From: Octopus sinensis
Lineage: Eukaryota
DNA length: 29,656 nucleotides
Assembly (NCBI RefSeq): GCF_006345805.1
Contig: NW_021832933.1
Span: 1-29,656, forward strand
Direction: 5' to 3'
Under the pieces are notes generated by a model. It made no database searches. It worked only from the letters and a program-made list of their open reading frames with translations, and was not told where the DNA came from. Of this stretch, positions 1 through 28,885 are shown one piece after another; within the stretch, counting starts at the first letter, position 1, and each line of letters begins with the position of its first letter. The position numbers and the translations under genes were made by a program.

Positions 1-801
1 GAATACTGTGTTCGATTGTTCTCAAATGTAAGCTCATTTCGAACCCAAATCCCTTGTTGCTATGTTTTCCCAATTTGTTTGAACATACTCGCGGACAGTT
101 GAACAGGACACGTTATATTTTTGCGTCAAATCTCAGATGCTTTGAGATAGATTATATAATATTTCTTTACTACCGACAAGGGCTAAACACAGAGGGGACA
201 AACAAGGACAGACAAAGGGATTAAGTCGATTACATCGACCTCAGTGCGCAACTGGTACTTAATTTATCGACCCCGAAAGGCGGAATTTGAACTCAGAACG
301 TAACGGCAGACCAAATACCTATTTCCTTATTACCCACAAGGGGCTAAACATAGAGGGGACAAACAAGGACAGACAGTCGATTACATCGACCCCAGTGCGT
401 AACTGGTACTTAATTTTTCGACCTCAAAAGGATGAAAGGCAAAGTCGACCTCGGTGGAATTTGAACTCAGAACGTAACGGCAGGCGAAATACCGCAAAGC
501 ATTTCGCCCAGCGTGCTAACGATTCTGCCAGCTCGCCGCCTTAGATAGATTCTATACTATAGCCTCATTAGAAACGGTCGTTATTCAGAGTGGGTCGTCT
601 TCCAGAGCGAGGCTTGTCGGATATGTCGCAATCGCCATCTTTAAACCATTTTAAAGACACAGCTGACATGTACGAGCTTTTCACTGCATCCGGTTACACT
701 TCACAAATGTTTTTCATCGCTACTCTAGCGATACTTCTCTTTCGAACTTCATACAATTAACAATGGGGAATATGTTGTTTCATGAAGTTCTTATCTTCCA
801 T
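1..801 (-). pseudogene. Decayed mariner-family transposase N-terminal half, interrupted by a SINE dimer at 160-542; runs off the window start
   Basis: Manual minus-strand translation from the ATG at 801 gives MEDKNFMKQHIPHC*LYEVRKRSIARVAMKNICEV*PDAV..., then WFKDGDCDISDKPRSGR (about 650-598), and after the SINE DLTQKYNVSCSTVREY...QIGKT*QQGIWVRNEL. These match the mariner HTH, the D/E-PRSGRP linker and the WVPHEL motif. Several stops and frameshifts. Confidence 0.85.
160..542 (-). mobile_element. Family A tRNA-derived SINE, head plus 2 tandem bodies
   Basis: Head with A-box-like TGGCAGAATCGTTAG and B-box-like GAGTTCAAATTCC; body repeated twice, the second with a deletion near 280. Flanked by an 18-bp TSD with 2 mismatches (145-162 AGATAGATTATATAATAT / 543-560 AGATAGATTCTATACTAT). 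Confidence 0.9.
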
Positions 802-2029: not shown

Positions 2030-2437
2030 ACCCCATTAATCGTCCTCAAACGCATTGCTCATACCAATTTAGATATACCAATTTTACATATTAAACACAT
2101 TCCTGGAAGCTGATAGGTAAATGTTAATAATCTGTAGGGATACAGTATTTCATTATACTATCATAATATGCTACAAAGTATATCAAACGATTTTTTTTAA
2201 TGAATCCTGTGTTCTACTGTGTTAGCCGTGCTATTACAACACTTCTTAAGGTTATCTATACAGATATTCTATACATTCTGTTACGACGTTTCGTATCCAT
2301 GTCACCTGATATAAACAGAAATGATGATGATAATTATGAAGATGATGGCTATTATGATGATGGCCATTATTATAAAGTTCGCGATGATGTTGACGACGAT
2401 GATGATCATGGCGGTGGTGACGATGACGATGATATTG

Positions 2438-2670
2438 AAGGCGGCGAGCTGGCAGAAACGTTAGCACGTCGGGCGAAATGCTTAGCAGTATTTCGTCTGC
2501 CGTTACGTTGTGAGTTCAAATTCCGCCGAGGTCGACTTTACCTTTCATCCTTTCGGAGTAGATAAATTAAGTACCAATTACGCACTGGGGTCGATGTAAT
2601 CGACTTAGTACCTATGTCTGTCCTTGTTTGTCCCCTCCGTGTTTAGCCCCTTGTGGGTAATAAAGAAATA
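2438..2670 (+). mobile_element. Family A SINE, full-length monomer (~233 bp)
   Basis: AAGGCGGCGAGCTGGCAGAAACGTTAG...GAGTTCAAATTCC...CCTTTCATCCTTTCGGAGTAGATAAATTAAGTACC...AAAGAAATA. Possible short TSD G[A/C]TATTGA. Confidence 0.9.
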
Positions 2671-3120
2671 GCTATTGATGGCACCATTCGCTCGACGATA
2701 CCCACGATGGTTGTGATGCAGACAACAAGACGTCGATGATAGACACTACAAGCATTATCAGCTGGGCTGCTGATAATGCTTGTAATGTCGATAATGATGA
2801 TGTCGCTTATCTTCACGATGCTGTAGAAGTGGCTTTCATTGATTCGTAGCTTAAAACGGCCTCGGGAGGCAATCATAAAGAGACATATGGGAAATACAAT
2901 AAATACATTAATCAAAATTAATTAATAAAAGTAAATAGATGAAATAACAAAAACAACATTGAAACGCTTACACATGCAGGCGCATTCACGGGTGCATATG
3001 TGTATACGCAAAGAAATGCGCGCATGCACATATGCACCTATGTACAAAGGCGTATATGGAGACATGTATTTGAACGCAAGGAGGCAAGGTGTGGTAGCAT
3101 ATAACATTTCTTAGATCTCA

Positions 3121-3598: not shown

Positions 3599-3769
3599 AA
3601 TGACAGTAGAGTATTTCCCGAATTTGCCTTCAGCTGCAATAAAATACATCAAACCATAAATACGAGATGACATACTTAATACAATCTACGACAAACAACT
3701 TTTAATCAATGAATTTAAATTAAAAACGTAATGACAAGTAAAGTCATTTACATTAATGGCACGTATTTA

Positions 3770-4058
3770 TGATTATCATTATCATCATCATCATCATTAT
3801 TATATTATTATTATTATTATTATTACTAACTACTACTTACTATTATTATTATTATTATTAATATTATTAATATTATTATTATTATTATTATCATTATTAT
3901 TATTATTATTATATTATTAATTATCATTATTATTATTATTATCATCATTATTATTATTATTATTATTCTTATCATTATTATTATTATTATTACTATTATT
4001 ATTATTATTACTACAATTATTATTATCATTATCATTATTATTATTATTATCATTATCA

Positions 4059-4090
<32 letters not shown>

Positions 4091-4302
4091 CATCATCATT
4101 ATTATTATTATTATTATCATTATTATTATTATTATTTATTTCATTATTATTATTATTATCATCATCATCGTCATCATCATTATTATTCTTATTCTTATTA
4201 TTATTATTGTTATTGTTGTTATTATTGTTATTTTTATTATCATTATTATTATTATCATTATTATTATTGTTATTATTGTTATTATTTATTATTATTATTA
4301 TT

Positions 4303-4352
<50 letters not shown>

Positions 4353-11091: not shown

Positions 11092-11842
11092 TCAAATCCG
11101 GGATTTGTCCCCGTTAACGAGAGGAGCTGGACCTAACTCAATGCCATAGCAATCAAGGTAGCAGGTGCAGCCCACCCCAAACTTTGAGATGGCTGGTGCC
11201 CATTCTCCTTTGCTATCATGAGGCTTTTTTTGAGCAGGATTTTCTACTGGGAGCATGCCCTTGTTTACCCCCAACCTAATTTTCTTATTTCTTTATTGCC
11301 CACAAGGGGCTACATAAAGAGGGGACAAACAAGGAAGACAAAAGGGATTAAATCGATTACCTCGACCCCAGTGCGTAACTGGTCCTTAATTTATCGACCC
11401 CGAAAGGATGAAAGGCTAGGTCGATCTCGGCGGAATTTGAACTCAGAACGTAAAGACAGACGAAATACTTATTTCTTTACTACCCACAAGGGGTTAAGCA
11501 CAGAGGGGACAAACAACGACAGACAGACGGATTAAGTCGATTATATCGACCTCAGTGTGTAACTGGTACTTATTTAATAGACCCCGAAAGGATGAAAGTC
11601 GACTTCGGCGGAATTTGAACTCAGAACGTAGCGGCAGACGAAATGCCGATAAACATTTCGCCCGGCGTACTAACGTTTTGGCCAGCTCGCCGCCTTCACT
11701 CAACCTTAGTTTCTAGACATAAGTGCTCCTAAGCCCAAGGCCTCTCCCACGAATTTTAAGAAATGTGGTCGAAAACTAGCTCAGAAAGGCAGGGACGCTA
11801 CTCCCTGGGACCCCTTTCGGAGCCCCTCTACCTATTCTACTT
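11092..11842 (-). mobile_element. GC-richer interspersed repeat, possibly an RTE-like 5' region, split by a SINE dimer
   Basis: Minus-strand GTTGGGGGTAAACAAGGGCATGCTCCCAGTAGAAAATCC resembles the GTTGG...GAAGGGCATCC.GCCGTA.AAA motif I recall from RTE-related repeats. CAACCT(T)A occurs on both sides of the inserted SINE. Confidence 0.35.
11281..11696 (-). mobile_element. Family A SINE, head plus 2 tandem bodies
   Basis: Junction GAAATACTTATTTC at 11462-11475. Confidence 0.9.
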
Positions 11843-13656: not shown

Positions 13657-13857
13657 ATTGGTTTCAAATTTTGGCACAAGGCCAGCAATTTCGGGGGAGG
13701 GAGTAAGTCGACTATATCGAATCCAGTATTCAACTGGTACTTATTTTATCGACGCTGAAAATATAAAACACAAAGTCAACTTCAGCAGAATTTGAACTCA
13801 GGGTGTAAAGACGGACGAAATGCCGCTAAGCATTTTTCTAGGCGAGCTAATGATTCT
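13657..13857 (-). mobile_element. Older family A subfamily copy (tail ...GCTGGCCTTGTGCCAAAATTTGAAACCAAT), head truncated by a younger dimer
   Basis: Same core as family A with a different tail; abuts 13858. Confidence 0.8.
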
Positions 13858-14272
13858 TATTTCTTTATTGCCCACAAGGGGCTAAACATAGAGGAGACAA
13901 ACAAGGACAGATAAAGGGATTAAGTCGATTACATCGACCCCAGTGCGTAACTGGTACTTAATTTATCGACCCCGAAAGGATGAAAGGTAAAGTCGACCTC
14001 GGCGGAATTTGAACTCAGAACGTAGCGACAGACGAAATACCTATTTCTTTACTACCCACAAGGGGCTAAACACAGAGAGGACAAACAAGGATAGAAAAAC
14101 AGATTAAGTCGATTACATCGACCCCAGTGCGTAACTGGTACTTATTTAATCGACCCCGAAAGGATGAAAGGCAAAGTCGACCTCGGCGGAATTTGAACTC
14201 AGAACGTAGCGGCGGGCGACATATCACAAAGCACTTCGCCCGGTATGCTAATGATTCTGCCAGCTCGCCACC
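13858..14272 (-). mobile_element. Family A SINE, head plus 2 tandem bodies
   Basis: Junction GAAATACCTATTTC at 14034-14047. Confidence 0.9.
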
Positions 14273-14789
14273 CATCACGCGAATTATATGAGTAAGATCG
14301 TTAGAACGTAAGGAAAGAATGTTGCACAGTATTCGTTCCGAGTGTAGGATCGTAAACTTTTAAAATTTGTTTTGATTACGATTTAGCATTGTCAGTTTGT
14401 ATTCTTGTATTTTTGTTATTTTCCTTTTCTGCAGTGAAATCAGTTTGTAAAACCGACTCAATTTTCTCTTATATATTTAGACTTCTGTTCTTGTCATACT
14501 TCCATATTACACAAAAGAGTTTATTTTTATTTCCTTCTAATTTCTATGTACAAGTGTTGTTATCACGTCATAGTTTTCTATTTTTGTAGTAGTTTTCTAT
14601 ACACCTATGTAGATATATTCTCATAAGTTTTATACAAGATAGCTTCTGGACGCTGATAATAGTTTTCATGTTTTTTCTGTCTAACGTTACTCACTTCATT
14701 TTAGTATATTAAATGCGCAGCTTAAAATCGTAATGATTAATAAGCCTATAACTATGATGAGATATCTAGCAACGGGTTCTGCTTTTAAT

Positions 14790-15537
14790 ATTGATTTCAA
14801 ATTTTGGTTCAAGACCAGTTGTAGATAATATGAACTCCAATGCTCAACTAGTACTTATCTATCGACTCCGAAAGAATGAAAGACAAAGTCGACCGTAAGG
14901 GAATTTGAACTCAGAACGTAAAGGCAGACGAAATAACTATTTCTTTACTACCCATAAGGGGATAAACACAGAGAGAACAAAGAAGGACAGACAAACGGAT
15001 TAAGTCGATTATATCGACCCAAGTGCGTAACTGGTACTTAATTTATCGACCCCGAAAGGATGAAAGGCAAAGTCGACCTCGGCAGAATTTGAACTCACAA
15101 CGTAACGGCAGACGAAATACCTATTTCTTTATTACCCACAAGGGGCTAAACACAGAGGGAAAAACAAGGACATACATAGGTATTAAGTCGATTATATCGA
15201 CCCAAGTGCGTAACTGGTACTTAATTTATCGACCCCGAAATGATTAAAGGCAAAGTCGACCTCGGCAAAATTTGAACTCACAACGTAACGGCAGACGAAA
15301 TACCTATTTCTTTACTACCCACAAGGGGCTAAACACAGGGGGGACAAACAAGGACAGACAAACGGATTAAGTCGATTACATCGACCCCAGTGCGTAACTG
15401 GTACTTAATTTATCGACCCCGAAAGGATCATAGGCGAAGTCGACCTCGGCAGAATTTGAACTCAGAACGTAACGGCAGACGAAATACCGCTATGCATTTC
15501 GCCCGGCGTGCTAACGATTCTGCCAGCTCGCAGCCTT
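14790..15537 (-). mobile_element. Family A SINE concatemer: head, 3 young bodies and 1 old-subfamily body
   Basis: Junctions at 14930, 15114 and 15297 (period 183-184). The last body (14790-14937) is more diverged and carries the old tail. Confidence 0.9.
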
Positions 15538-16510: not shown

Positions 16511-16627
16511 CTACTTTATGCGGAGAGCTGGTAGAATGGTTAGCGTGCCAGGAAAAACTGTTTAACGGCATTTCGTCTGTCTTTACGTTATGAGTTCAAA
16601 TTCATTTCGAGGTCAGTTTAATATGTT

Positions 16628-17040
16628 GGCGCAGGAGTGGCTGTGTGGTAAGTAACTTGCTTACAAACCACATCGTTCCGGATTCAGTCCCACTGCGTGG
16701 CACCTTGGGCAAGTGTCTTTTGCTATAGCCTCGGGCCGACCAAAGCCTTGTGAGTGGATTTGGTAGACGGAAACTGAAAAAAGCCTGTCGTATATATTTA
16801 TGTATATATATGTGTGTGTGTGTGTGTGTCTGTGTGTGTTTGCGTGTCTGTGTTTGTCCCCCAGCATCGCTTGAAACCGATGTTGGTGTGTTTACGTCCC
16901 CGTAACTTAGCGGTTCAGCAAAATAGACAGATAGAATAAGTACTGGGCTTACAAAGAATAAGTCCTGGGGTCGATTTGCTCGACTAAAGGCGTTGCTCCA
17001 GCATGGCCGCAGTCAAATGACTGAAACATGCGAAAGAGAA
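16628..17040 (+). mobile_element. Family B SINE, full length, inserted in an old family A copy (16520-16620)
   Basis: Starts GGCGCAGGAGTGGCTGTGTGGTAAG; colinear with the other B copies. Confidence 0.92.
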
Positions 17041-17300
17041 AGACACTATCAGCTGAGCACCTGGGGTCCATGTCATTGACACCCAGACCCCCACGTCCTT
17101 CACAAGAGAATAAGTACCCGGGTAGATTCACTCGACTAAAACAAATTGTTGAACTGCTGCAGTGAAATGATTGAAACGGGTAAAAGAAATGATAAAACAT
17201 ATTTTATCAACCAACAAAAGAGAAACCCTTAATCATCTCCATCGTGTTCCTCTGCTTGTCTACTCTATTATCTATTATAGATTTCAATAACTGAATACTT

Positions 17301-18030
17301 AAGGCGATGAGCTGCAGAACCGTAAGCACGTCGGATATAATGCTTAGCGACATTTCGTTCGTCTTCACCAACTGAGGTAAAATATCCGCCATTTTATCTT
17401 TGGTGTGGGGTCGATGTTATCGATTTGAATCTCGTCCCAAATTTGCTGGTCTTGTGCCGAAATTTGAAATTAATAATTAATGTGCTTGAAACAACACGAT
17501 GGCAGAATTGTTAGAATGCCGGTTAAAATGCTTAGCGACATTTCGTTCGTCTTCACCAACTGAAGCAAAATTCCGCCACTTATCCTTTTGTGAGGGGTCG
17601 ATGTTATCGACTTAAATCTCATCCCAAATCTGCTGGTCTTGTGCCGAAATTTGAAATTAATAATTAATGTGCTTGAAACAACACGTTGGCAGAATCGTTA
17701 GCATGCCGGTTAAAATGCTTAGCGACATTTCGTTCGTCTTCACCAACTGAAGTAAAATTCCGCAATTTATCCTTTTGTGAGGGGTCGATGTTGTCGACTT
17801 AAATCTCATCCCAAATCTGCTGGTCTTGTGCCGAAATTTGAAATTAATAACTAATGTGCTTGAAACAGCACGTTGGCAGAATTGTTAGCATGCCGGTTAA
17901 AATGCTTAGCGACATTTCGTTCGTCTGTACGTTCTGGGAACCAGTTGAGCAACGGGGTCGATTTAATCGACTTAGTCCTCTACCCGCAACCGCCTCCAAC
18001 CTGCTGGCATCTGGCCAAAATTTGTAGACA
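17301..18030 (+). repeat. ~187-bp tandem repeat (about 4 units) derived from a decayed family A SINE plus flank
   Basis: TGCTTAGCGACATTTCGTTCGTCT starts at 17341, 17529, 17716 and 17903 (periods 188, 187, 187). Confidence 0.9.
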
Positions 18031-20126: not shown

Positions 20127-20941
20127 TTTCAACAATTGAGGGAAAATTAATTAATTAATCAATTTCACCAAGTATTCAGTATGCAAAGGGACCATTTAAG
20201 GCGAATTCAAATTAATTACATTAATACACGGGCTTAGTAAAATAAATTACTTTGCCGCATACTGAACTCATTGAAATAAGCATAGCGCTAAAAAAACTTT
20301 TTTAAAACTATTTCTAATACTTAAAGAAAACCTCTCTCATTAGTGTTTGCTCATTCAACTCACGCAAATATGGGGGTAGAGACATTAAAAAATCAAGTGC
20401 AAAGGTTATTTGAGAACGTACGTTTCAAGATTAGTCAACACGACATTTCTATCATCAGCTCAGAACTCCCTGGTTGGACCTGAAAACACTGAAAGTGGGA
20501 GCATACCCTTTCGGCTTCCTCTCGCTTCTGAAGATCTGCTCGTAACTAACATGCCAACAAACCCAAAAATGCAAGCGAAGAATTTCTGCTCTCCCCTTTC
20601 CACCAGCGTGGGTTAAAATCAGTAAACACTATGCTTTTTTCGGTAAGTCCGCGGCATTATATAGAGAGAGATGAATTATAATTTCAACAATTGAGGGTAA
20701 AATTAATTAATTAATCAATTTCACCAAGTATTCAGTATGCAAAGGGACCATTTAAGGCGAATTCAAATTATTACATTATATAAAAGGGCTTAGTAAAATA
20801 AATTACTTTGCCGCATACTGAACTCATTAGAAATAGCAGCTAAAAAAAACTTTTTTAAAACTATTTCTAATACTTAAAGAAAACCTCTCTCATATAGTGT
20901 TTACTCAATTCAACTCACGCAAATATGGGGGTAGAGACATT
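20127..20941 (-). mobile_element. Non-coding partial-tandem element (555-bp unit, ~1.47 copies) in (TA)n, carrying a hammerhead motif; retrozyme or non-autonomous Penelope-like
   Basis: Direct repeats 20127-20386 and 20682-20941 (offset 555 at both ends), (TA)n on both flanks, no credible ORF, hammerhead motif at 20411-20462. Confidence 0.75.
20411..20462 (-). ncRNA. Type I hammerhead ribozyme motif with palindromic stem III
   Basis: TGAG-CTGATGA-T AGA AAT GTC GTGTT GAC TAA TCT T-GAAA-CG TA CG-TT-CTCA. Complete core, 4-bp stem I, CGTACG stem III, GUU cleavage triplet. Stem II is imperfect (U.U first pair, 3x3 internal loop). Confidence 0.65.
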
Positions 20942-20992
20942 TATATATATATATCGTATATATATATCGTATAATATAGAGTCCTTGGGCTG

Positions 20993-21870
20993 AGGCGACG
21001 AGCTGGCCGAAACGTTCGCGCGCCTTGCGAAATGCTTAGAGGTATTTCGTCCGCCGTTACGTTCTGAGTTCAAATTCCGCCGAGGTCGACTTTGCCTTTC
21101 ATCCTTTCGGGGTCGATTAAATAAGTACCAGTTACGCACTGGGGTCGATATAATCGACTCAATCCCTTTGTCTGTCCTTGTTTGTCCCCTCTGTGTTTAG
21201 CCCCTTGTGGGTAGTAAAGAAACAGGTATTTCGTCTGCCGCTACGTTCTGAGTTCAAATTCTGCCGAGGTCGACTTTGCCTTTCATCCTTTCGTGGTGGA
21301 TTAAATAAGTACCAGTTACGCACTGAGGTCGATATAATCGACTTAATCCGTTTGTCTGTCCTTGTTTGTCCCCTCTGTGTTTAGCCCCTTGTGGGTAGTA
21401 AAGAAATAGGTATTTCGTCTGCCGCTACGTTCTGAGTTCAAATTCCGCCGAGGTCGACTTTGCCTTTCATCCTTTCGGAGTCGATTAAATAAGTACCAGT
21501 TACACACTGGGTTCGATGTAATCGACTTTATCCGTTTGTCTGTCCTTGTTTGTCCCCTCTGTGTATAGCCCCTTTTGAGTAGTAAAGAAATAGTTATTTC
21601 GTCTGTCTTTACGTTCTGAGTTCAAATTCCGCCGAGGTCGACTTTGCCTTTCATCCTTTCGTGGTGGATTAAATAAGTACCAGTTACGCACTGAGGTCGA
21701 TATAATCGACTCAATCCGTTTGTCTGTCCTTGTTTGTCCCCTCTGTGTTTAGCCCCTTGTGGGTAGTAAAGAAATAAGTATTTCGTCTGCCGCTACGTTC
21801 TGAGTTCAAATTCCGCCGAGGTCGACTTTGGCTTTCATCCTTTCGGGGCCGATAAATTAAGGACCAGGTG
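20993..21870 (+). mobile_element. Family A SINE concatemer: head, 4 full 184-bp bodies and a partial fifth
   Basis: Unit starts (G/T)TATTTCGT at 21042, 21226, 21410, 21594 and 21778 (period exactly 184). Confidence 0.93.
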
Positions 21871-22289
21871 CGTAGTGTTTTCTGCGAATAATATTTATCG
21901 ACCATAGAGAAGAGAGAGCTTTAGTGTATTAGTGTGTGCGTGTGTGTACGTTTTCAAATAATCAATCGTTCAATTATTGATTAACCGAGCGAGCACTGTT
22001 ATAACACCAAGACTAGTTCATACCAGACGACTGGCATCAAATATTGAGAGAAAAAATGTATTGTGTTCACACCTTTCACTGCGGTGTGCTGTTTAACACC
22101 TTTGGCAATTCAAACAATAACATTTTAGTTTCTTTGAAATTAACTCAGGTGCTAGTTCTAATTAAGATTCTTGTTAGATGATTTGGTAACCAAGCACTGT
22201 CCTCATATCCTTTAGCTTCCATGGCCTTTTATCTATAAACTAGTTGATACGACCCAGGGTTGTTACTAGTTGGGAAAGGATTTATCTTT

Positions 22290-23899: not shown

Positions 23900-24175
<276 letters not shown>

Positions 24176-26453: not shown

Positions 26454-26854
26454 TTTAATGAATCTTAATTACCTTTTTATGATGGTATCTGAAAAGGGAC
26501 AGCAAATATAAGACGGCAAATGACCAGTTCATTAGATAGTGATTTATTGTCGCATTATATTTGTTCCAGGATTCGGTGTTCTCTGTTAAAATTCCACCAA
26601 GGTCAGTTTCGCTTCTATTTTTCGTGATTGATTAAAAAATCCCAAATCCAACCGTTGATGGTGACATGATTCGCGACATTTCTTTCCCTTTCAGAGCAAC
26701 GCTTTGCCGGCAATGGTCCCGAGCTATGAAGAAGGATCCAGGTCAGCAGTCTTTGCTCTGGATAAAAATAGGGGAAAAAAATTCGTATGTGTAGGTACCG
26801 AATAACCTTCCACAATGATATTAGTAGTTTTTTGTGGACGGTATAAAGGATGTG

Positions 26855-27271
26855 AAGGCGGTGAGCTGACAGAATCGTTTGCGCGCCGGGCGAAATGTTT
26901 AGCATATTTCGTCTGCCGCTACGTTCTGAATTCAAATTCCGCCGAGGTCGACTTTGCCTTTCATCCTTTCGGGGTCGATAAATTAAGTACCAGTTACACA
27001 CTGGGGTCGATGTAATCGACTTAATCCGTTTGTCTGTCCTTGTTTGTTCCCGCTTTGTTTAGCCCCTTGTGGGTAGTAAAGAAATAGGTATTTCGTCTGC
27101 CGCTACGTTCTGAATTTAAAATTCCGCCGAGGTCGACTTTGCCTTTCATCCTTTCGGGGTCGATAAATTAAGTACCAGTTACGCACTGGGGTCGATGTAA
27201 TCGACTTAATCCGTTTGTCTGTCCTTGTTTGTCCTCTCTGTGTTTAGCCCCTTGTGGGTAGTAAAGAAATA
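26855..27271 (+). mobile_element. Family A SINE, head plus 2 tandem bodies
   Basis: Junction GAAATAGGTATTTC at 27081-27094; 14-bp TSD GGTATAAA[G/T]GATGT (26840-26853 / 27272-27285). Confidence 0.93.
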
Positions 27272-27619
27272 GGTATAAATGATGTAGCACTGTATACACT
27301 GATTATAAGAGACAGTAATACCAAATTTTCTTGCCAACTGGTCATAATTTACTACATCCAAAGTTTCACTCGATTCTTCCATTTTCCGTCTTTAAAAATT
27401 GCGAAAATGATTGATTTTAAAACAGTTAAAAGACTAGAAATATATGGAGGGTGTTTAATCGATTGCATTAACCAAATGATCGTATTTTTACGTTTAGTAC
27501 CTGTATTTTTTCGATCACGATTGGCAGGTTTAGAAATCAGAAAATAAAGAACCGTAATGAGTATTCTCTAAGTTAGTTTCATCTGAGGCTTTTATAATTC
27601 GGCCAAACCACTTAGATAT

Positions 27620-28371: not shown

Positions 28372-28885
28372 ATAATAATGATAATAATAATCGACCAATT
28401 GAATAACATCAACAACAACTATAATAATGATGATAATAATAATAATAATAATGATAATAAAAATAATAATAATAATAATATAATAATGATAATATAATGA
28501 TAATAAAAATAATAATAAAAAATAATGATATAAACATATTAATAATAATAATAATAATGATAATAAAAATAATAATAATATAATGATAAAAAAAAATAGT
28601 AATGATAATAATAAACTAATGATAATAAAAATAATAATAATAAAAATAATAGTAATGATAAGTAATAAATAATAAAAAATAATTAATAATGATAATAAAA
28701 TAATGATAATAATAATAATATATAAATAATGATAATGAATGATAATAATAATATAATAATAATAATAATATAATAATAATAAAAATAATAAAAATGAAAT
28801 ATAAAAATAATAATAATAATAACAATAATAATAATGATAATGATAACAGAAGTAATAAAAAGAAGGAGGAGGAGTAGGAGGAGTA
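28372..28885. repeat. Degenerate (AAT)n tract ending in (GGA)n
   Basis: Direct reading. Confidence 0.92.

What the first reader, a model, noticed from the sequence alone, without database searches (positions are those of the whole stretch)
20993..21870. SINE concatemers always joined at the same hairpin loop: self-targeting insertion or circular intermediate
Seen: six arrays (160-542, 11281-11696, 13858-14272, 14790-15537, 20993-21870, 26855-27271) have one head followed by 2-5 bodies of ~184 bp. All 11 internal junctions fuse the tail ...AAAGAAATA(G) to GTATTTCGTC. In the head, GTATTTCGTC is the 3' arm of a 10-bp hairpin (GGCGAAATGC-loop-GTATTTCGTC) in the anticodon-arm position. The tail is itself complementary to that arm, so each junction forms GAAATA-GG-TATTTC. 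Two arrays are bounded by a single TSD pair. Inference: random unequal crossing-over should not give one fixed breakpoint. Possible explanations are RNA cleaved in the loop, circularised and copied by rolling-circle reverse transcription; new copies inserting into the loop of existing copies; or an already multimeric master copy.
Basis: partly seen in the sequence, partly recalled or inferred. Interest (0 to 1): 0.75.

Follow-up and report, generated by a model that had tools for sequence, protein, structure and literature searches.

The report
Self-targeting SINE builds tandem body arrays
A tRNA-like short mobile element in this animal genome occurs thousands of times as one head followed by repeated 184-base bodies joined at one fixed point, and this likely happens because new copies insert at a GGTAT motif at the edge of the anticodon-like hairpin of copies already in place, which shows one way a mobile element can seed satellite-like repeats.

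Summary
All 11 internal joints in the window fuse ...AAAGAAATA to GGTATTTCGTC. The exact 27-base joint occurs 12,792 times in the 2.72-Gb genome. In 1.2 Mb of arbitrarily placed sample, 32 of 81 headed copies have more than one unit.

The joint is most likely this family's ordinary integration joint. Free-standing copies have target-site duplications that start with GGTA in 9 of 40 cases, about 90 times chance. The same motif sits at the loop/3'-arm boundary of resident SINEs. Seven inspected loci show full-length copies nested exactly there, flanked by 9-15-base duplications of the resident 3' arm.

In arrays that end in a unit of an older sister family, that unit (14.5% diverged) and the outer duplications (11% mismatch) are old. 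The inner units are young (6.5%).

- **Inner versus last units:** inner units are one young subtype. Last units mirror the free monomer population.
- **5' join:** the headless 5' join (homology-resolved) is inferred, as is copying from array-derived RNA.
- **Later growth:** local duplication and retrotransposition of whole arrays add to the arrays.
- **Rolling circle:** a circular RNA copied by rolling circle is not supported.

This is a new variant of SINE-derived tandem repeats, of moderate interest.

The parts
20992..21040 (+). Head (tRNA-like 5' part, up to the anticodon-like loop) of the focal array
   Evidence: Head profile columns 3-51. A 10-bp hairpin with the start of unit 1 is in the MFE fold.
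21041..21777 (+). Four full 184-bp family-A body units (u1-u4) of the focal array. Each starts GGTATTTCGTC or a one-base variant and ends ...AAAGAAATA.
   Evidence: u2 and u4 differ by 0.027 and share CGTGGTGGATT, which occurs 9 times genome-wide. This points to a local 2-unit duplication.
21778..21875 (+). Last unit of the focal array. It matches the body only to column 98 and is the most diverged unit (0.095-0.128 from the others). It is likely the remnant of the resident copy.
   Evidence: No TSD was found.
14821..15537 (-). Array of head + 3 family-A bodies + a last unit of sister family X1 (tail ..CCAAAATTTGAAATCAAT). An outer TSD of about 12 bp is seen by eye.
13858..14273 (-). Array of head + 2 bodies. 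Its tail abuts column 19 of the head of an X1-type element (13677-13857), which is the second nested hot spot.
11286..11697 (-). Array of head + 2 bodies, bounded by the TSD AGAAA(A/C)T(T/A)AGGTTG at 11272-11285 and 11701-11714
160..543 (-). Array of head + 2 bodies (both with internal deletions), bounded by the TSD TATA(T/G)AATCTATCT at 145-158 and 543-556
26854..27272 (+). Array of head + 2 bodies, bounded by the TSD GGTATAAA(G/T)GATGT at 26840-26853 and 27272-27285. This is a non-SINE target that starts with the same GGTAT.
2437..2671 (+). Monomeric family-A copy (head + one body), used as reference for the unit boundaries

Best explanation
The fixed joint is this SINE family's normal integration joint, and the arrays likely grow because new copies integrate by target-primed reverse transcription at the GGTAT that starts the 3' arm of the anticodon-like hairpin in a SINE copy already in place.

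**Shown directly by sequence**
1. The family integrates with TSDs of 7-23 bp that often begin GGTA right after ...AAAGAAATA.
2. Full-length copies sit nested exactly at loop|GGTATTTCGTC of resident copies of this and two sister families, flanked by duplications of the resident 3' arm.
3. The 3'-most unit and the outer TSDs of arrays are older than the inner units.

**Inferred**
4. In most events the 5' end is resolved by homology between the new cDNA and the resident head or 3' arm. No second head remains, which gives head, then new body, then old body.
5. The donor RNA is mostly read-through RNA of existing arrays. Its tail is followed by GGUAUUUCGUC, which gives the nicked resident DNA 10 or more bases to anneal to. 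This would explain why the inner-unit subtype is rare as a monomer.
6. Arrays are then further copied as wholes and expanded locally by in-register unequal exchange.
For: **Genome-wide scale**
- The joint 27-mer occurs 12,792 times, against 10,186 for the head|body 27-mer.
- 43 of 138 family-A 3' ends abut body column 1-2. 4 abut head column 19, 6 abut other SINE positions and 85 abut non-SINE DNA.

**Target preference**
- TSDs were found for 40 of 59 elements, monomers and arrays alike.
- 9 of the 40 start GGTA (10 if L037 is counted), against a background of 0.00258 per position.

**Nested insertions with TSDs of the resident 3' arm**
- L110: 14/15 bases match. L068: 9/9.
- L151: 15/15. L152: 11/12. 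L155: 13/15. L157: 13/14.
- L156: 15/15, family A into a family-A array, and both TSD copies carry the same private variant.
- Genome-wide, GGTATTTCGTC followed within 12 bases by a head start occurs 135 times. A control body 11-mer gives 5.

**Position-specific make-up (178 units)**
- Column 171 = C in 20/50 monomers, 2/95 inner units and 18/33 last units. Inner versus last p = 4e-11; last versus monomers p = 0.26.
- Column 147 = T in 5/49, 43/95 and 6/32.

**Age**
- Rare-variant load is 0.021 for inner units, 0.024 for monomers and 0.0375 for last units.
- In 31 arrays the last unit exceeds the inner units in 23 and falls below in 7 (p = 0.004).

**30 arrays ending in an X1 unit (of 154 genome hits)**
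- The X1 unit is 0.145 diverged, like X1 monomers (0.158). The adjacent A unit is 0.065, like A monomers (0.066). p = 5e-9.
- The X1 unit is X1-type from column 11 on, so the 3' boundary is sharp.
- Head column 23 is T in 15 and A in 11 of 28. X1 heads are 85% T and A heads 27% T, so about half the heads are resident-type.
- Outer TSD mismatch is 19/172 = 11.0%. X1 monomers give 14/165 = 8.5% (p = 0.47). A-only elements give 27/598 = 4.5% (p = 0.003).
Against: - **Site availability falls short.** SINE-arm-like sites are only 139 of 6189 GGTA sites in the sample, yet they take roughly two thirds of GGTA-type joints. A 4-5-base motif cannot explain this alone. The extra preference (extended homology with array RNA, or inheritance of joints by copying arrays) is inferred.
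- **Unresolved forms are rare.** Two-head nested forms are about 1% as frequent as single-head joints (135 versus 12,792 for equally long exact patterns). The homology-resolved path would therefore have to dominate, and it is never seen directly.
- **A specific prediction failed.** With resident-type heads, the first 11-15 bases of the first unit should keep resident-type bases. Only 1 of 15 arrays with head column 23 = T did so. This needs trimming of a mismatched 3' end, or a join within the shared 11 bases.
- **Head type is independent of last-unit type in A-only arrays.** Head column 47 = G occurs in 4 of 17 arrays whose last unit is 171C, against 0 of 17 such monomers.
- **CpG decay shows no age difference:** 0.80 inner, 0.78 last, 0.76 monomers.
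- **Dimers alone are not significant:** the last unit has more rare variants in 12 and fewer in 6 (p = 0.13).
- **Some dimers spread as dimers.** A recurrent dimer type (first unit ..TAAGTGTGG, last unit TTAGCCACA) suggests this.
Confidence: 0.6

Rival explanations
1. Copy-choice during one retrotransposition event. The reverse transcriptase starts on one SINE RNA. At the GGUAUUUCGUC boundary (a hairpin stall or a cleaved 5' end) the nascent cDNA, which ends ...GAAATACC, re-anneals to the same 11 bases after the tail of another or multimeric SINE RNA. It copies one or more bodies, then finishes on a head. The whole array is inserted at once.
For: - It gives the same fixed joint and sharp boundaries on both sides of the inserted unit. 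This fits (the first unit is A-type from column 11 even under X1-type heads).
- Arrays are bounded by a single TSD pair.
- About half of the heads of A-to-X1 arrays are A-type.
- Head type is independent of last-unit type.
Against: - It cannot make the two-head nested forms with duplicated resident 3' arms.
- It predicts that all units and the outer TSD have one age. Instead, last units carry more rare variants. In A-to-X1 arrays the outer TSDs are as decayed as those of old X1 monomers and more decayed than those of A-only elements. The X1 unit is 14.5% diverged and the A unit 6.5%.
Confidence: 0.15
2. One or a few multimeric master copies, formed once, spread as multimers. Unit number then changed by in-register unequal crossing-over or slippage. 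The joint is simply inherited.
For: - The joint is very uniform: 12,792 exact 27-mers.
- The body consensus has no run of four T, so Pol III could read through.
- Composites are retrotransposed: L154 has a partial head, a 3' arm and a full copy inside one TSD at a non-SINE site.
- A recurrent dimer type exists.
- Array-private variants occur in long arrays (L015, L021, L005) and in the focal array.
Against: - Last units are as heterogeneous as free monomers. They include two other, older families; 154 exact A-to-X1 joints were found.
- Within-array unit distances in short arrays (0.082) are close to between-array distances (0.097).
- It does not explain nested TSDs, or the GGTA-start TSDs at non-SINE sites.
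Confidence: 0.15
3. DNA-level ectopic repair. A break in a resident copy is repaired by synthesis-dependent strand annealing on an array elsewhere, out of register. This adds array-type units between the resident head and body.
For: It would also keep the resident head, last unit and outer TSD old, and make the inner units array-type.
Against: - Conversion tracts should end at variable points inside the 120 bases shared by the families. Instead, the last unit is resident-type from column 11 and the first unit is donor-type from column 11.
- It does not explain nested copies with TSDs, or the GGTA preference at non-SINE sites.
Confidence: 0.05
4. SINE RNA is cleaved in the anticodon-like loop, circularised, and copied by rolling-circle reverse transcription.
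For: The unit boundary lies at the loop/3'-arm edge of a predicted 10-13-bp hairpin. A few long arrays have nearly uniform inner units (L015, L021).
Against: - Units of one short array often belong to different subtypes and differ by 0.05-0.15.
- Arrays end in older units, including units of other families.
- Headless single bodies are rare: 4 against 48 headed monomers in 1.2 Mb.
- The same joint forms at non-SINE GGTA targets.
Confidence: 0.03

Closest known systems
SINE-derived satellites (sSats) of squamate reptiles (Vassetzky et al. 2023, PMC10702118; abstract and Discussion read)
   Same: Tandem repeats made of a portion of a SINE, with a longer terminal unit that reaches the SINE terminus. 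Short loci hold a few units and are scattered in the genome.
   Different: In squamates the unit boundaries differ between taxa and loci. The proposed origin is unequal homologous recombination or repeated insertion, without TSD evidence. Here one boundary is shared by about 10^4 joints. It coincides with the family's own target motif, and nested TSDs show insertion.
TSD1-(SINE)n-TSD1 arrays of the blood clam Scapharca broughtonii (Martelossi et al. 2024, PMC11481361; passages read)
   Same: The first unit has a complete tRNA head, internal units are truncated at the head, and the whole is bounded by one TSD pair. Both hosts are molluscs.
   Different: In the clam, internal units also lack part of the 3' tail and no mechanism was established. 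Unequal recombination between TSDs was discussed for the other array type. Here the tail is complete at every joint and the joint equals an integration site.
Head-to-tail tandems of full-length mammalian SINEs (B2, B1, Dip; Kosushkin et al. 2021, PMC8466645; passages read)
   Same: A large share of copies sits in multimers of up to eight. The authors leave open whether one SINE integrated into the tail of another or dimeric templates were copied. The same two alternatives apply here.
   Different: Those units are complete SINEs joined at A-rich tails. Here the target is internal, at the anticodon-like loop edge, and the added units lack the head.
Link between TSD start and 3' microsatellite-like end in RTE-related SINEs (Nishiyama & Ohshima 2018, PMC6007223; abstract read)
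   Same: The first bases of the TSD correlate with the element's 3' end. This suggests that priming on the RNA's 3' end selects or fixes the target.
   Different: That work does not report self-targeting or arrays. The LINE partner of the present family was not identified.
Dimeric SINEs that amplify as dimers (Alu and others; as summarised in PMC10702118)
   Same: Multi-unit elements can be transcribed from one promoter and retrotransposed as a whole. L154 shows a composite copied as a whole.
   Different: Alu-type dimers have fixed composition. Here the unit number varies from 2 to 10 or more, and the last unit is drawn from the resident population.

Membership tests
tRNA-derived SINE | tRNA-like 5' head with internal Pol III A and B boxes | tested here: inconclusive
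   ARAGORN and Rfam found no tRNA. A cloverleaf-like fold with a 10-13-bp anticodon-like stem is predicted. A-box-like GAGCTGGCAGAA and B-box-like GAGTTCAAATTCC were recognised by eye from recalled consensus, not scored.
tRNA-derived SINE | Short, very numerous, dispersed copies flanked by target-site duplications | tested here: met
   The element is about 236 bp. About 81 headed copies occur per 1.2 Mb. TSDs were found in 40 of 59 elements, above the shuffled-pair null.
tRNA-derived SINE | 3' end shared with a partner LINE | not tested
   No LINE partner was sought. The DNA search of the genome skips very common words.
SINE-derived satellite / tandem repeat | Head-to-tail repeats of a part of a SINE, with one terminal unit extending to the SINE end | tested here: met
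   The structure is head + n bodies, with the head only at the 5' end.
SINE-derived satellite / tandem repeat | Long homogenised arrays and preferred chromosomal regions | tested here: not met
   Arrays in the unbiased sample have 2-4 units. The longest seen among junction-selected loci have about 10. The sampled loci are spread over 24 contigs. Chromosomal position was not analysed.
Nested (self-targeted) retrotransposon insertion | Duplication of the interrupted host element's sequence on both sides of the insert | tested here: met
   7 loci have 9-15-bp duplications of the resident 3' arm. 135 genome matches against 5 for the control.
Nested (self-targeted) retrotransposon insertion | The host element is older than the insert | tested here: met
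Rolling-circle product of a circular RNA | Units of one array identical at birth, with no foreign terminal unit | tested here: not met
Single multimeric master | Position-specific diagnostic bases shared by all arrays, including the last unit | tested here: not met
   Inner units are one subtype, but last units match the monomer population and include families X1 and X2.

The most novel reading that the evidence does not exclude
Arrays seed arrays through RNA. Read-through transcripts of existing arrays carry GGUAUUUCGUC after each tail. The nicked 3' arm of any resident SINE of the superfamily anneals to that internal boundary and primes reverse transcription of the upstream unit, and homology closes the 5' side. 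This would be an RNA-mediated, homology-guided 'retro-conversion'. It turns dispersed monomers, even of older sister families, into tandem arrays, and it maintains a unit subtype that hardly exists as a free element. In effect it is a self-propagating route from SINE to satellite.
Probability: 0.35. Interest if true: 0.72.

Novelty: new variant of a known kind. Interest (0 to 1): 0.55.

Why it matters
How dispersed mobile elements turn into tandem repeats is usually put down to rare unequal recombination, and the first duplication step is seldom caught. The recent papers read here leave open whether SINE tandems arise by integration into an existing copy or from multimeric templates (PMC8466645, PMC10702118, PMC11481361).

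This family offers about 10^4 joints of one kind, with direct footprints:
- nested TSDs;
- an old resident unit next to young inserted units;
- a target motif shared with ordinary insertions.

The question therefore becomes testable in one genome and its relatives.

It also matters for repeat annotation. About 40% of the headed copies of this family sampled here have more than one unit, so they would be miscounted or split by standard pipelines.

Tried and rejected
- **DNA search of the own genome** with a joint-spanning 101-mer found nothing, because very common words are skipped. Exact patterns were used instead.
- **ARAGORN and Rfam** gave no hit in the window.
- **RNA evidence:** no RNA holder listed. 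The runs are kept as contigs and cannot show RNA ends. Contigs spanning the joint with at least 31 bases on each side were seen in runs of three other organism codes (X13 record 6, X15 records 15-16, X17 record 24). This shows only that the joint exists there.
- **CpG decay as a clock** showed no difference between unit classes.
- **Head typing to tell resident from donor heads in A-only arrays** was inconclusive.
- **Predicted resident-type bases at columns 11-15 of the first unit** were not found.
- **TSD of the focal array** was not found.
- **Junction mini-hairpin** is not more stable than shuffles.
- **Earlier notes of this scan** held none for this genome.
- **PMC9795677** (passages) and **PMC9659126** (passages) held nothing on such arrays.
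- **PMC13282606** (passages) describes a SINE expansion in Octopus vulgaris at JC 0.065 but no arrays.
- **Literature searches** listed no paper on a fixed anticodon-loop joint or self-targeted SINE arrays. Subscription journals and supplements were not seen.
- **Organism:** not established. An octopus is my recollection from genome size and repeat make-up, and it was not tested.

Full report
**1. What is in the window**

The window is one whole 29.7-kb contig (C9404) of a 2.72-Gb, 13,516-contig animal genome. It is AT-rich (GC 0.37) and full of microsatellites. Tandem Repeats Finder finds five 184/185-bp arrays, including 21040-21867 with 4.5 copies. Head and body profiles built from the window's own copies find a sixth array and one monomer.

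Each array has one 52-base head followed by bodies of 184 bases. All 11 internal joints fuse ...AAAGAAATA to GGTATTTCGTC, with single-base variants. The head ends in the loop of a hairpin whose 3' arm is the first 10-13 bases of the body, and this hairpin is in the minimum-energy fold. ARAGORN and Rfam do not call a tRNA.

**2. Scale**

The exact 27-base joint occurs 6412+6380 times in the genome, against 0 for the reversed control. The equally long head|body boundary occurs 10,186 times.

I took 120 stretches of 10 kb at arbitrary round coordinates on 24 large contigs. In these 1.2 Mb there are:
- 48 head + one body;
- 15 head + two bodies;
- 3 with three bodies and 2 with four;
- 3 with a partial extra unit;
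- 9 that end in a unit of another family;
- 1 head + a partial body.

So 32 of 81 headed elements have more than one unit.

Of 138 family-A 3' ends (sample plus window), 85 are followed by non-SINE DNA, 43 by body column 1-2, 4 by head column 19 and 6 by other SINE positions.

By contrast, a 187-bp array of another SINE in the window (17300-18030) has a joint found only in that array: 3 genome hits, all in the window. It is an ordinary local duplication.

**3. Sister families**

Two other families (X1 and X2) share the head and about the first 120 bases of the body, but have other tails that end in (ATT)n. Many arrays end in such a unit.

**4. The joint is an integration joint**

TSDs of 7-23 bp bound monomers and arrays alike: 40 of 59 elements were above threshold. 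The same 40 of 59 pass a shuffled-pair null.

Directly after ...AAAGAAATA, 9 of the 40 TSDs start GGTA (10 with L037). About 6 start AGAAA, and most of the rest start with ATAT-like strings. GGTA has a frequency of 0.00258 per position in the sample. So tail|GGTA forms at ordinary, non-SINE targets about 90 times more often than chance. The start of the SINE body, preceded by the last G of the loop, is such a site.

**5. Direct footprints of nesting**

In L110 a full family-A dimer with its own head lies between two copies of GGTATTTC(A/G)CCCGTC inside an X1 element. In L068 a monomer lies between two GGTACGTCT inside an X2 element, and both copies share the resident's deletion.

A genome scan for GGTATTTCGTC followed within 12 bases by a head start gives 135 matches. 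A control body 11-mer gives 5.

I read nine of the fetched loci:
- L151, L152, L155, L156 and L157 show such TSDs (11/12 to 15/15 matches).
- L156 is family A nested in a family-A array, and both TSD copies carry the same private variant.
- L154 is a composite (partial head, 3' arm and a full copy) inside one TSD at a non-SINE GGTA site. Composites are therefore themselves retrotransposed.
- L158 and L160 are 65-bp-period arrays of head + 3' arm.
- L153 is a complex nest.

**6. Who is old and who is young**

I aligned 178 near-full units: 50 monomers, 95 inner and 33 last.
- Inner units are almost all one subtype. Column 171 = C in 2/95, against 18/33 last units and 20/50 monomers. Inner versus last p = 4e-11; last versus monomers p = 0.26.
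- The column-147 T variant is common in inner units (43/95) and rare in monomers (5/49).
- Rare-variant load is 0.021 (inner), 0.024 (monomers) and 0.0375 (last).
- Within 31 arrays the last unit is higher in 23 and lower in 7 (p = 0.004). In dimers alone the split is 12 to 6 (p = 0.13).
- CpG decay shows no difference.

**7. The cleanest test: arrays ending in an X1 unit**

A gapped pattern finds 154 of these, and I analysed the 30 loci returned.
- 27 have one head, one has two heads (L182) and two have none.
- The X1 unit is 0.145 diverged from the X1 consensus, like free X1 copies (0.158). The adjacent A unit is 0.065, like free A copies (0.066). p = 5e-9.
- The X1 unit has X1-type bases from column 11 on, so the 3' boundary is sharp.
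- The head is X1-type at column 23 in 15 of 28 and A-type in 11 (reference frequencies).
- Outer TSDs were found in 12 of 26. They have 11.0% mismatches, like X1 monomers (8.5%, p = 0.47) and unlike A-only elements (4.5%, p = 0.003).

The outer insertion is therefore X1-aged and the A unit came later. This fits nesting and does not fit a one-step event.

**8. What remains inferred**

*The headless 5' join.* Two-head forms are about 1% as common as single-head joints (135 versus 12,792). If nesting makes most joints, the cDNA must nearly always be joined by homology with the resident head or 3' arm. That is plausible, since up to 67 bases are homologous, but it is not seen directly. A specific prediction, resident-type bases at columns 11-15 of the first unit, failed in 14 of 15 arrays with resident-type heads. 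The join would then lie within the 11 shared bases or need trimming of a mismatched end.

*The strength of the preference.* SINE-arm-like sites are 139 of 6189 GGTA sites, yet they take about two thirds of GGTA-type joints. Either the donor RNA carries more homology (read-through RNA of arrays, whose tail is followed by GGUAUUUCGUC), or many joints are inherited by copying whole arrays and by local duplication. The first option would explain why the inner subtype is rare as a monomer.

Both whole-array copying and local duplication occur. A recurrent dimer type exists, as do the composite L154 and array-private variants in L005, L015 and L021. In the focal array, u2 and u4 differ by 0.027 and share a variant present only 9 times in the genome.

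**9. Rivals**

- *One-step copy-choice by the reverse transcriptase* explains sharp boundaries and A-type heads, but not nested TSDs or the old outer TSDs.
- *A single multimeric master* is excluded by the monomer-like diversity of last units.
- *Ectopic DNA repair* predicts variable conversion tracts, which are not seen.
- *Rolling-circle copying of a circular RNA* is contradicted by mixed subtypes within arrays, within-array distances of 0.082 against 0.097 between arrays, foreign old last units, and the rarity of headless single bodies (4 against 48 headed monomers in 1.2 Mb).

**10. Comparison with the literature read**

Squamate SINE-derived satellites (PMC10702118, Discussion) and clam TSD1-(SINE)n-TSD1 arrays (PMC11481361, passages) have the same architecture but no established mechanism. 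For mammalian SINE tandems the authors state that they cannot tell integration into a tail from dimeric templates (PMC8466645, passages). A link between TSD start and SINE 3' end is known for RTE-related SINEs (PMC6007223, abstract).

My five searches listed no paper describing a fixed anticodon-loop joint or self-targeted headless arrays. The held library lacks most subscription journals, including the early octopus SINE papers that I only recall.

**11. Verdict**

This is a real, abundant feature. It is best read as self-targeted nesting at the family's own GGTAT target, followed by spread and local growth. It is a new variant of SINE-derived tandem repeats, and its interest is moderate and mainly mechanistic.

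Noticed in passing
window 17300-18030 (+): A different SINE (X1-like tail) forms a 187-bp array of 3.3 copies. Its unit runs from head column 15 to the tail plus about 22 bases of extra sequence. The joint occurs only here in the genome (3 hits), so this is a local tandem duplication and not a family trait.
   Followed up: yes
G000:C1:195358953-195359246 (L160-L162); also C7:15322782-15323080, C18:40399009-40399172, C9:16123246-16123342: Arrays of heads: the head plus the first ~13-15 bases of the body (GGTATTTCGTCTGCCG) repeat with a 64-66-bp period, followed by one body. In L160 the whole is bounded by a 19-bp TSD, GGTATTTCTTCCAGTTCTT. This is the mirror image of the body arrays. It may come from unequal exchange between the two heads of a nested insertion.
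   Followed up: partly
window 13824-13857 next to 13858-14273; L034, L038, L089, L101: A second nested hot spot. Family-A tails (subtype ...AAATAA) abut head column 19-21 (GAATCGTTAGC) of resident SINEs. In L089 there is a 16-bp TSD, GAATCGTTATCACTAT. This accounts for 4 of 138 family-A 3' ends.
   Followed up: partly
L080, L046 (random loci); window ~16569-16760: A further, unrelated SINE-like repeat (..GGTAGACGGAAACTGAAAGAAGCCCGTCGTATAT..) is hit by family-A insertions in its tail, with TSDs AGAAACCGAAAGAAGCCCGTC and CGTATATGTGT. This again fits targets that resemble the family-A 3' end.
   Followed up: no
random loci: Among free family-A monomers only 21 of 45 have GGTAT at the head|body boundary, and 15 have CGTAT (a head subtype). 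If GGTAT-bearing residents are the ones converted into arrays, the remaining monomers would be depleted of the target. This was not tested.
   Followed up: no
window 20900-21500, laid contigs: Runs labelled with four other organism codes hold this SINE in very large amounts. Contigs that span the joint occur in three of them, so the family and its joint are probably shared by related species.
   Followed up: partly
window, many places (e.g. 3767-4304, 23900-24172, 28421-28846): Long (TTA)n/(ATT)n microsatellites occur, several directly after X1/X2-type SINE tails. These tails appear to seed or extend trinucleotide repeats.
   Followed up: no
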